Source: the human T2T-CHM13v2.0 reference genome, Homo sapiens
NCBI RefSeq assembly: GCF_009914755.1
Contig: NC_060926.1
Direction: 5' to 3' (one strand)
DNA length: 64,000 bases
Each line of letters begins with the position of its first letter. Position 1 is the first letter of the stretch. The position numbers and the translations under genes are program-made. This document shows positions 17,606-18,207 of the stretch, one piece after another. Under the pieces are notes generated by a model, which saw only the letters and a program-made list of their open reading frames with translations, made no database searches and was not told where the DNA came from.

Positions 17606-17961
17606 TTTTTTTTTTAAATTAAACAATCATTTTATTGCTTGAGTACATAGACAAATTTATATGACCAGGACAGAGGCTGTAGATTACTCACTTCCAACTG
17701 GGAGGGAGGATTTGCTTGGTCTTACAATATTGAGCCAAAGGGTGACTCTACCTCTCTATCAGAATCAGACAGAATTTACCATCCTTATCCTTTCTGTTCA
17801 TCTCAAGATGCTTTTGAACAATAACTACTTCTTAATTAAATGGTAGAGATCTTCAGGGAGATCAGGAGCAAGTCCCTTCTTGGACTTAAGAATTCTTAAG
17901 ATGCTATTGCCTGTCACAAAACGTACTTGAGCAACACCATGTGAGTCTCTCAAGAACCAAA
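17606..17961 (-). pseudogene. RPS13 retropseudogene: spliced 3' exons ([16 protein letters not shown]...STASVLVI*), 3' UTR, AATAAA and poly(A)
   Basis: Reverse complement matches recalled RPS13 mRNA; stop TAA 17657-17659; AATAAA 17631-17636; 10-nt A tail 17606-17615; frameshifting indels (e.g. ~17830); no internal introns. Confidence 0.93.
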
Positions 17962-18116
17962 CTTGAAAAGGGAATCATGTTTTAACTTCCAATACCAAAC
18001 ACAAACTGGAGAACGTGATGATGTCAAGGCTCAGGTATCATGGCATAGTTTCCTATTTGTAAGATGGGGGTCTACTTTTATACATCACAGAAACCAACAT
18101 GGGAATGCATGCAAAG

Positions 18117-18207
18117 CTCTCATAGACATCCAAGGAAGGTTTACCGAACACTAAGGAAAATCTTTCTGGTGGAAACTGTGAACGTTGAAAAACCATCATC
18201 ACAGTGA
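18117..18207 (-). ncRNA. SNORD14: U14/SNORD14 box C/D snoRNA retrocopy with damaged box D
   Basis: TCACTGTGATGATGGTTTTTCAACGTTCACAGTTTCCACCAGAAAG...AAACCTTCCTTGGATGTCTATGAGA; box C GTGATGA 18196-18202; domain A-like and domain B 18S-antisense elements present; CTGA replaced by CTATGA. Confidence 0.93.

What the first reader, a model, noticed from the sequence alone, without database searches (positions are those of the whole stretch)
17606..18207. Retro-fossil of a snoRNA-capped, polyadenylated RPS13 transcript (U14 + intron remnant + spliced 3' exons + polyA)
Seen: on the minus strand the insert starts exactly at the U14 5' stem (TCACT-GTGATGA). It then runs through the whole snoRNA, ~155 nt of non-repeat sequence ending in TTCCCTTTTCAAG (17962), intron-free RPS13 3' coding sequence, AATAAA and poly(A). 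No RPS13 5' exons are present, and an A/T-rich candidate TSD (aaaaa.atttt) flanks it. Known: RPS13 hosts U14 snoRNAs (SNORD14A/B) in its introns; 5' snoRNA-ended polyadenylated RNAs (SPA type) arise when a snoRNP blocks 5'-3' exonucleolysis; snoRNA retroposons carrying host exons have been described as a class. Inference: the template was neither ordinary mRNA nor mature snoRNA. It was an RPS13 RNA that retained the U14 intron, had downstream introns spliced, and was trimmed to the snoRNP boundary. Random L1 5' truncation landing exactly on the snoRNA end is unlikely. This suggests an RPS13/U14 SPA-like species existed in the ancestral germ line, possibly coupling ribosomal-protein and snoRNA output as NOP56/SNORD86 does.
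Basis: partly seen in the sequence, partly recalled or inferred. Interest (0 to 1): 0.9.

Follow-up and report, generated by a model that had tools for sequence, protein, structure and literature searches.

The report
U14–RPS13 snoRNA retroposon (Type 3)
This is an old, dead retrocopy of an RPS13 RNA that began exactly at the U14 snoRNA and kept the rest of that intron, a kind of element first described in 2006, so it is a tidy example rather than a new kind of thing.

Summary
On the minus strand, 18207-17606 holds five joined parts:
- a complete but decayed U14 copy (Rfam SNORD14, 52.1 bits, below the 64-bit cut-off);
- the whole 155-nt remainder of RPS13 intron 3, without gaps;
- exons 4-6, joined at the exon boundaries;
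- AATAAA;
- an A10 tail.

Homology to the parent gene (own genome, C11:17.17 Mb) starts at the first U14 base. No RPS13 5' exon lies within 15000-21000. The A/T target site is present three times, because an Alu later inserted at the 5' junction.

This matches, feature by feature, the "Type-3 snoRNA retroposon" of Weber 2006 (PMC1687206). That paper already proposed the template: host pre-mRNA cut, trimmed 5'-3' to the snoRNA, and its 3' part spliced and polyadenylated. In today's terms that is an SPA-like RNA.

It is the only U14 retrocopy I found: 6 U14 loci genome-wide, the other 5 in introns of two loci. It is 1 of 11 RPS13 retrocopies. A second C/D-box example, from the locus I take to be RPL13A, turned up in a panel of four C/D families.

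The suggested regulatory coupling has no support. I rate it a new member of a known kind, of modest interest.

The parts
18509..18522 (-). First copy of the target site (AAAAATATTTTT followed by CA), directly 5' of the Alu. Read as the 5' target-site duplication of the Alu; the CA matches U14 nt 2-3.
   Evidence: direct reading
18231..18508 (-). Alu element in the same orientation as the retrocopy. It is not part of the retrocopy and was inserted later at the 5' junction.
   Evidence: Metazoa_SRP partial matches; Alu-to-Alu BLAST matches
18208..18230 (-). Alu A-tail (A5 G A10, 18230-18215) merged with the second copy of the target site (A run plus T7, 18214-18208).
18118..18207 (-). Decayed copy of the U14 snoRNA of RPS13 intron 3. 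The C box is intact. The D box has changed from CTGA to CTAT, and the 3' half of the terminal stem from GTGA to GAGA.
   Evidence: 52.1 bits, below gathering score 64; parent copies score 73.8 and 70.6 bits; alignment
17963..18117 (-). Entire 155-nt remainder of RPS13 intron 3, from the U14 3' end to the 3' splice site. The splice-site AG is now AA.
   Evidence: no gaps, about 90% identity to parent L002rc 1591-1745
17790..17962 (-). RPS13 exon 4, with a 3-nt insertion and a 1-nt deletion; the reading frame is broken.
17692..17789 (-). RPS13 exon 5, joined exactly to exon 4 (parent intron 4, 255 nt, removed).
17616..17691 (-). RPS13 exon 6 with the 3' UTR and AATAAA (17636-17631). Parent intron 5, which holds the second U14, has been removed.
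17606..17615 (-). Poly(A) tail (A10), merged with the A part of the third copy of the target site.
17599..17605 (-). T7 of the third copy of the target site (3' target-site duplication of the retrocopy), followed by the unique flank AAGCTACC.

Best explanation
The element is a Type-3 snoRNA retroposon (Weber 2006) from RPS13. It is now an inert fossil lying in sense orientation in intron 1 of DNAJC27.

**Shown:**
- One RNA was copied. It carried the intron-3 U14 from its first base, the complete 155-nt rest of intron 3, exons 4-6 with introns 4 and 5 removed at the exon boundaries, the gene's own AATAAA, and a poly(A) tail.
- It lies between copies of an A-run/T7 target that follows TT, which fits LINE-1 target-primed reverse transcription.

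**Inferred:**
- The template's 5' end was made when an unspliced or intron-3-retaining RPS13 RNA was cut upstream of U14.
- A 5'-3' exonuclease then degraded it until the assembled box C/D snoRNP stopped it.
- The 3' part had meanwhile been spliced and polyadenylated normally. In today's terms this is an SPA-like RNA.
- I cannot tell whether this happened in the nucleus (XRN2) or in the cytoplasm after nonsense-mediated decay cleavage (SMG6/XRN1, as for the NOP56/SNORD86 cSPA).

**Later events:**
- An Alu inserted into the 5' copy of the target, taking 2-3 nt of U14 into its own duplication. This is inferred from the junction sequences.
- The U14 copy lost its D box and the coding frame broke. 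These two changes are shown.
For: - **Complete snoRNA at the 5' end:** the U14 match covers the whole SNORD14 model, positions 1-111, starting at 18207.
- **Contiguity with the parent:** query 1-424 is one block with parent C11:17173334-17173753 at 89%. The next blocks map to parent L002rc 2170-2276 and 2901-2980, so introns 4 and 5 are gone.
- **5' boundary:** the parent sequence upstream of U14 (…CAGCAAGC) is absent from the retrocopy.
- **Matching T runs:** T7 lies on both sides, at 18214-18208 and 17605-17599. This places the U14 T at 18207 inside the insert.
- **Contrast with other retrocopies:** in all 8 other RPS13 retrocopies examined, exon 3 is joined to a downstream exon with no intron-3 sequence (exon 4 in 7, exon 5 in 1). 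7 of the 10 other retrocopies reach the mRNA 5' end.
- **Chance estimate:** a random 5' end within 1 nt of the U14 start has probability about 0.0015.
- **Direction of reverse transcription:** the enzyme moves 3' to 5' and meets the snoRNP's 3' side first. A block by the snoRNP would therefore not end the copy at the snoRNA 5' end (inference).
- **Published class:** Weber 2006 defines this class and proposes this template (PMC1687206, sections 8, 13-14 read).
- **Second C/D case:** L029 (C6:29.46 Mb) has the same architecture.
- **Search control:** the covariance-model search finds 41 SNORA70 loci.
Against: - No RNA data were available. The snoRNP-protected 5' end of the template is inferred, not observed.
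- The target-site duplication is low-complexity (an A run and a T run), so it is weaker evidence than a unique duplication. It also leaves 1 nt of doubt at the 5' end.
- No other primate genome could be searched. No empty site was seen, and the order of snoRT and Alu rests on 2 nt (CA; 1 in 16 by chance).
- Only one such retrocopy exists for U14/RPS13, so a rare accident cannot be excluded.
- The examples named in the main text of Weber 2006 that I could see are all H/ACA or scaRNA. Its Table 3 and its supplements were not visible.
Confidence: 0.88

Rival explanations
1. An ordinary intron-3-retaining RPS13 mRNA was copied, and LINE-1 reverse transcription or integration broke off by chance at the first base of U14 (random 5' truncation).
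For: 5' truncation is common among LINE-1-mediated inserts (established knowledge). Host genes with several snoRNAs give many intron-retention isoforms (PMC4233243, passages seen).
Against: The probability of landing within 1 nt of the U14 start is about 0.0015. None of the 10 other RPS13 retrocopies retains intron 3, and 7 of them are full length. The same coincidence recurs at L029 and in 18 of 42 RPL10 pseudogenes according to Weber 2006.
Confidence: 0.07
2. The element is a chimera or two separate insertions. Either the reverse transcriptase switched template from RPS13 mRNA to free U14 snoRNA, or a U14 retrocopy and an RPS13 pseudogene landed side by side.
For: Chimeric retrogenes with small RNAs at the 5' end exist. 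They are cited in Luo and Li 2007 (PMC1802619) and Weber 2006 (passages seen).
Against: U14, 155 nt of intron and exon 4 are contiguous exactly as in the parent gene, without gaps. There is no poly(A) or duplication between the pieces.
Confidence: 0.01
3. The template was a capped transcript that started at a cryptic promoter at or just upstream of U14 inside RPS13 intron 3. No exonuclease trimming was involved.
For: None from my calls. Sequence alone does not exclude it.
Against: A start site falling on the exact first base of a mature snoRNA would be a coincidence. The same pattern at other host genes would need many such promoters.
Confidence: 0.03
4. It is a DNA-level duplication of part of RPS13, with the introns lost later.
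For: None.
Against: Two introns are removed at the exon boundaries. A poly(A) tail follows the gene's own AATAAA, and A/T target duplications flank the insert.
Confidence: 0.01

Closest known systems
Type-3 snoRNA retroposons (snoRTs), Weber 2006, PLoS Genet 2:e205 (PMC1687206)
   Same: [quoted passage not shown] It holds the entire downstream intron, the processed 3' exons, poly(A) and a target-site duplication at a TT/AAAA-like site, and lies in sense orientation in a host-gene intron. An adjacent SINE has triplicated the target site, as in that paper's Figure 1D. The ribosomal-protein pseudogene annotation overlooks the intronic part: RefSeq RPS13P5 stops at 17967.
   Different: The snoRNA here is a box C/D RNA (U14). 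The snoRTs named in the main text that I could see are H/ACA or scaRNA (accession list). RPS13 occurs 0 times in that text, and U14 occurs only in a yeast context. There is a single copy here, against 30 for U70/RPL10.
H/ACA retrogenes from 'partially processed, exon-containing hnRNAs' (Luo and Li 2007, PMC1802619; rhesus SNORA24b, PMC2832892)
   Same: A snoRNA plus the 3' part of its intron plus the downstream exons is retroposed with poly(A) and a target-site duplication (passages seen).
   Different: Those are H/ACA snoRNAs from other host genes.
SPA lncRNAs (SPA1, SPA2) and the cytoplasmic SNORD86 cSPA of NOP56
   Same: The inferred template has a 5' end set by a box C/D snoRNP that stops a 5'-3' exonuclease, and a 3' poly(A) tail. 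Like the cSPA, it comes from inside a protein-coding host gene. The comparison rests on the review PMC11028025 (passages seen).
   Different: Only the DNA fossil is seen here. No RNA, no stability, no localisation and no function has been shown. SPA1 and SPA2 arise from read-through past a poly(A) site, not from an intron. That review names only three SPAs.
Ordinary processed pseudogenes of RPS13
   Same: Same parent, same 3' end, same LINE-1-type insertion.
   Different: The 10 others lack any intron-3 or U14 sequence. This one lacks exons 1-3 and keeps 245 nt of intron 3.

Membership tests
Type-3 snoRNA retroposon (Weber 2006) | [quoted passage not shown] | tested here: met
   The Rfam match starts at model position 1 at 18207. 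Parent homology starts at the same base. The flanking T run leaves 1 nt of doubt.
Type-3 snoRNA retroposon (Weber 2006) | Entire intronic sequence downstream of the snoRNA is present | tested here: met
   155 nt (18117-17963) align to parent L002rc 1591-1745 without gaps.
Type-3 snoRNA retroposon (Weber 2006) | Processed (spliced) 3' exons of the host gene follow | tested here: met
   Exons 4, 5 and 6 are joined. Parent introns 4 and 5 are absent.
Type-3 snoRNA retroposon (Weber 2006) | Poly(A) tail after the host gene's polyadenylation signal | tested here: met
   AATAAA at 17636-17631 and A10 at 17615-17606.
Type-3 snoRNA retroposon (Weber 2006) | Target-site duplication at a LINE-1 endonuclease-like site (TT/AAAA) | tested here: met
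   An A run plus T7 lies on both sides, and the upstream flank reads CCATTT/AAAAA. The duplication is low-complexity, so it counts for less than a unique one.
Type-3 snoRNA retroposon (Weber 2006) | Lineage-specific presence, with an empty site in an outgroup genome | not testable with these tools
   No other primate or mammalian genome is held; only the window's own genome could be searched.
SPA-type RNA (5' snoRNA-ended, 3' polyadenylated) as the template | An RNA with a snoRNP-protected, uncapped 5' end exists in cells | not testable with these tools
   No expression or 5'-end data were available. The claim is inferred from the retrocopy's 5' end only.
SPA-type RNA (5' snoRNA-ended, 3' polyadenylated) as the template | 3' end made by the normal cleavage and polyadenylation machinery | tested here: met
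   The tail begins 15 nt after the gene's own AATAAA, where the parent 3' UTR homology ends.
Functional SNORD14 (U14) gene | Reaches the Rfam gathering score; intact C and D boxes and terminal stem | tested here: not met
   It scores 52.1 bits against a cut-off of 64. The five other U14 loci score 65-73.8 bits. The D box has changed from CTGA to CTAT, and the stem from GTGA to GAGA.
Ordinary processed pseudogene | Intronless copy of mature mRNA | tested here: not met
   245 nt of intron 3 (U14 plus tail) are retained, and exons 1-3 are absent.
Template-switch chimeric retrogene (small RNA fused to mRNA copy) | The two parts come from separate transcripts and are not contiguous in any gene | tested here: not met
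   The parts are contiguous in the parent gene.

The most novel reading that the evidence does not exclude
RPS13 makes, or once made, a stable U14-snoRNP-capped, spliced, polyadenylated RNA in germ-line cells, as other snoRNA-hosting ribosomal-protein genes would too. On this reading, Type-3 snoRNA retroposons are a genomic fossil record of a class of SPA-like RNAs far wider than the three named in the 2024 review. The RPS13 species could act in cis or in trans to balance U14 and S13 output, as the SNORD86 cSPA does for NOP56.
Probability: 0.08. Interest if true: 0.6.

Novelty: new member of a known kind. Interest (0 to 1): 0.3.

Why it matters
It corrects an annotation. RefSeq RPS13P5 (17613-17967) omits the 240 nt of U14 and intron at its 5' end.

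It adds a box C/D case from a ribosomal-protein gene to a class whose named examples, in the texts I could read, are H/ACA.

It also gives a concrete RNA to look for: RPS13 poly(A)+ RNA that starts at the intron-3 U14. More broadly, such retrocopies record which snoRNP-capped host RNAs reached the LINE-1 machinery in the germ line. That could guide a search for more SPA-like RNAs.

None of this is surprising to a specialist who knows Weber 2006.

Tried and rejected
**Rivals considered and rejected**
- Template-switch chimera or two separate insertions: rejected because U14, the intron and exon 4 are contiguous as in the parent.
- DNA duplication: rejected by the exon-exon joins and the poly(A) tail.
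- The retrocopy continuing upstream of the Alu: rejected, because window 15000-21000 holds no further RPS13 homology.

**Searches that found no further copies**
- U14 plus spacer as query found only this locus and the parent (3 matches).
- The intron-5 U14 plus its intron tail found 6 matches, none carrying the tail outside the parent.
- The SNORD14 covariance model found 6 loci (111 of 73,844 candidates scored, so a lower bound).

**Literature**
- The term 'RPS13P5' occurs in 0 papers.
- Terms for semi-processed retrocopies with snoRNAs gave 1 irrelevant paper.
- A search for RPS13 together with SMG6, XRN1 and snoRNA host genes gave no paper holding RPS13 among the 12 listed of 33.

**Not obtained**
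The body of its Table 3 is not held in the text.
- The Alu subfamily was not determined, because no repeat library is held.
- No cross-species test of presence or absence was possible.

Full report
**What is in the sequence**

Read on the minus strand, the stretch 18207-17606 holds five joined parts.

- **U14 copy, 18207-18118.** It matches the whole Rfam SNORD14 model (positions 1-111) at 52.1 bits, E 1.9e-9. That is below the family's gathering score of 64.
- **Intron remainder, 18117-17963.** This is 155 nt.
- **RPS13 3' coding sequence and 3' UTR, 17962-17616.**
- **AATAAA, 17636-17631.**
- **A10, 17615-17606**.

The coding part still reads ...[16 protein letters not shown]...[13 protein letters not shown] 3-nt insertion, a 1-nt deletion and stop codons break it.

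**The parent gene**

A search of the window's own genome with the 602 nt gave 13 matches. Besides the window itself, the best is C11:17173334-17173753. It covers query 1-424 in one block at 89% identity. So U14, the 155 nt and the next exon lie side by side there, exactly as in the insert.

BLAST against that locus (L002, read in gene sense) gave further blocks at 2170-2276 and 2901-2980. Mapping eight processed RPS13 pseudogenes onto the locus fixed the exon map (splice sites refined as set out under the observation check):

| Feature | Position in L002, gene sense |
|---|---|
| Exon 3 | 124-205 |
| Intron 3 | 206-1745, with U14 at 1501-1590 |
| Exon 4 | 1746-1914 |
| Exon 5 | 2170-2272 |
| Second U14, in intron 5 | 2625-2715 |
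| Exon 6 | 2903-2980 |

Exons 1 and 2 lie further upstream. The two parental U14 copies score 73.8 and 70.6 bits.

I take the C11 locus to be RPS13. It is the intron-bearing source of the loci that RefSeq calls RPS13 pseudogenes, and it encodes the S13 C-terminal sequence. Whether the intron-3 copy is named SNORD14A or SNORD14B I did not establish.

**What the retrocopy kept and lost**

It is U14 of intron 3, then the whole remainder of intron 3 with no gap, then exons 4, 5 and 6. The exon 4/5 join is exact at 17790/17789. The exon 5/6 join is at about 17692/17691, with 2 nt missing.

The U14-bearing intron 5 was spliced out cleanly. Kimura two-parameter distance is 0.095-0.156 per segment, and 526 of 587 aligned bases are identical.

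**The 5' end**

- The parent reads ...CCAGCAAGC before TCACTGTGATGA. The insert reads a run of T before the same bases. Homology therefore begins at 18207.
- The T run in front of U14 has 8 T (18214-18207). The T run after the poly(A) tail has 7 (17605-17599). With T7 as the duplicated target, the eighth T is U14's own first base.
- Either way, the end lies within 1 nt of model position 1.
- No RPS13 sequence lies elsewhere in 15000-21000; the other matches there are Alu to Alu.
- On an intron-3-retaining transcript of about 2067 nt, a random 5' end within 1 nt of this base has probability about 0.0015. This figure was computed after the fact.
- Reverse transcriptase moves 3' to 5' and would meet a bound snoRNP at the snoRNA's 3' side first. 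A block by the particle therefore does not explain an end at the 5' side (inference).

**Flanks**

An Alu (18508-18231, same orientation) lies directly 5' of the insert. The A/T target occurs three times:

1. CCATTT-AAAAATATTTTT-CA, before the Alu.
2. The Alu tail A5GA10, then T7, before TCACTG.
3. A10 then T7, before AAGCTACC.

The simplest order is that the retrocopy came first, at TT/AAAA, the LINE-1 endonuclease type of site. The Alu then entered the 5' copy of the target. Its duplication took in the first 2-3 nt of U14, which explains the CA in front of the Alu.

This order rests on 2 nt and is inferred. Weber 2006 describes just such target-site triplications by a snoRT and a SINE (Figure 1D legend and section 10).

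**How common is this?**

- With U14 plus spacer as query, the genome holds only this locus and the parent (3 matches).
- With the intron-5 U14 plus its tail, there were 6 matches, all U14 bodies. None carried the tail outside the parent.
- The SNORD14 covariance model finds 6 loci: two in the parent, three at C11:123.09 Mb, and this one, the only one below the cut-off. Only 111 of 73,844 first-look candidates were scored, so this is a lower bound.
- A full-length RPS13 retrocopy as query gave 46 matches. About 70 nt of non-RPS13 flank at the start of my query gave 28 repeat matches, which I set aside. Seven more matches are the parent's six exons and a second piece of one C23 copy. The 11 retrocopy loci break down as follows:

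| Retrocopies | Form |
|---|---|
| 7 | Reach the mRNA 5' end |
| 2 (both on C23) | Join exon 3 to exon 5 |
| 1 (on C4) | Holds only exons 1-3 |
| 1 (this one) | Starts at U14 in intron 3 |

In all 8 other retrocopies examined, exon 3 is joined to a downstream exon with no intron-3 sequence (exon 4 in 7, exon 5 in 1).

**A small panel for context**

| Family searched | Loci found | Reading |
|---|---|---|
| SNORA70 (control) | 41 | Fits Weber's many U70 retroposons; shows the tool can find retrocopies |
| SNORD15 | 2 | Both at one locus |
| SNORD18 | 5 | Three clustered; two elsewhere share only snoRNA-length homology with the cluster |
| SNORD33 | 3 | Two clustered at C19:52.49 Mb; one at C6:29456929 (L029) |

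L029 repeats the architecture seen here.

- Homology to the C19 locus starts within 7 nt of the model's first base and runs 335 nt.
- Five further collinear blocks follow, with 160-350 nt missing between them.
- These are followed by AATAAA, an A-rich tail, and a roughly 20-nt duplication (CTGTATAATAAAAATATTCTG / CTGTATTATAAATTATTCTG).

So the U14 case is not the only box C/D example in this genome. The host-gene names for these loci (RPS3, RPL4, RPL13A, HSPA8) are recalled, not from a call.

**What is known in print**

- **Weber 2006 (PMC1687206).** I read the abstract, sections 8, 13-15 and 17, and passages. [quoted passage not shown] It notes that such elements from ribosomal-protein genes had been annotated as processed pseudogenes with the intronic part overlooked. 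It explains them by endonucleolytic cleavage of the host pre-mRNA, followed by exonucleolytic degradation up to the snoRNA 5' end, while the 3' part is spliced and polyadenylated. RPS13 does not occur in its main text, and U14 occurs only for yeast. The snoRNAs in its accession list that are retroposed are H/ACA or scaRNA.
- **Luo and Li 2007 (PMC1802619) and a rhesus study (PMC2832892).** Both describe the same thing for H/ACA RNAs (passages).
- **A 2024 review (PMC11028025, passages).** It names three SPAs in all (SPA1, SPA2 and the SNORD86 cSPA of NOP56) and does not mention RPS13 or SNORD14.
- **Lykke-Andersen 2014 (PMC4233243, passages).** It reports that host genes with several snoRNAs give many intron-retention and NMD-sensitive isoforms. 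This makes an intron-3-retaining RPS13 RNA plausible. RPS13 is not named in its main text.
- **'RPS13P5'** occurs in no paper of the library.

**Reading**

The element meets all five testable defining features of a Type-3 snoRT. The sixth, an empty site in an outgroup, cannot be tested here.

The template was, with high likelihood, an RPS13 RNA whose 5' end was set by the U14 snoRNP: an SPA-like molecule. That step is inferred.

I cannot separate a nuclear route (cleavage and XRN2) from a cytoplasmic one (NMD cleavage and XRN1). The second would put a polyadenylated RNA where LINE-1 proteins usually pick up templates (inference from general knowledge).

In the parent, U14 ends 155 nt before the 3' splice site in intron 3, and the second U14 ends 187 nt before the 3' splice site in intron 5. 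From memory, box C/D snoRNAs that depend on splicing sit nearer, about 70 nt. This might favour a splicing-independent route, but it is a lead only.

**Present state**

The U14 copy has lost its D box (CTGA to CTAT) and one half of its terminal stem. The intron's AG is now AA, and the frame is broken. No annotated DNAJC27 exon overlaps it (gene table given with the finding). It is a fossil.

Its age is roughly 40-90 million years, judging from about 10% divergence and recalled primate substitution rates. The Alu is younger. Neither age was tested across species.

**Verdict**

The kind of element and the mechanism have been in print since 2006, so this is a new member of a known kind. The suggested regulatory coupling of S13 and U14 output is not supported by anything found here.

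Noticed in passing
L029:1481-2352 (own genome C6:29456909-29457780): A second box C/D Type-3 snoRNA retroposon. A copy of the SNORD33-family (62.7 bits, above the cut-off) lies at the 5' end. It is followed by 335 nt contiguous with the C19:52.49 Mb parent locus, five further spliced blocks, AATAAA, an A-rich tail and a roughly 20-nt target-site duplication.
   Followed up: partly
own genome C2:12059143-12059212 and C15:88513563-88513632 (L024, L026): Two SNORD18-like copies lie outside the C15:64.32 Mb cluster. They share only snoRNA-length homology (63-69 nt) with it. One has an A/T-rich stretch beside the snoRNA 3' end. They may be Type-1 retroposons.
   Followed up: partly
own genome C23:52624001-52624265 and C23:53058526-53058786 (L010): Two near-identical RPS13 retrocopies on C23 join exon 3 directly to exon 5, so exon 4 is missing. 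They look like copies of an exon-skipped mRNA, later duplicated with their surroundings.
   Followed up: no
own genome C4:126564071-126564228: An RPS13-like piece that covers only exons 1-3 of the mRNA (query 93-250, 81% identity).
   Followed up: no
window 17613-17967 against 17606-18207: The RefSeq pseudogene RPS13P5 covers only the exonic part. The 240 nt of retained intron and U14 at its 5' end carry no annotation row in the table supplied.
   Followed up: yes
window 17963-18117: The retained intron tail is no more diverged from the parent (K2P 0.106) than the exons are (0.103-0.156), although both copies of an intron should drift. The parent's intron tail may be under constraint, or CpG decay may inflate the exon values.
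   Followed up: no
window 17963-17964: The 3' splice-site AG of the retained intron is AA in the retrocopy. This removes an acceptor that could otherwise have pulled the RPS13 exons and their poly(A) signal into DNAJC27 transcripts.
   Followed up: no
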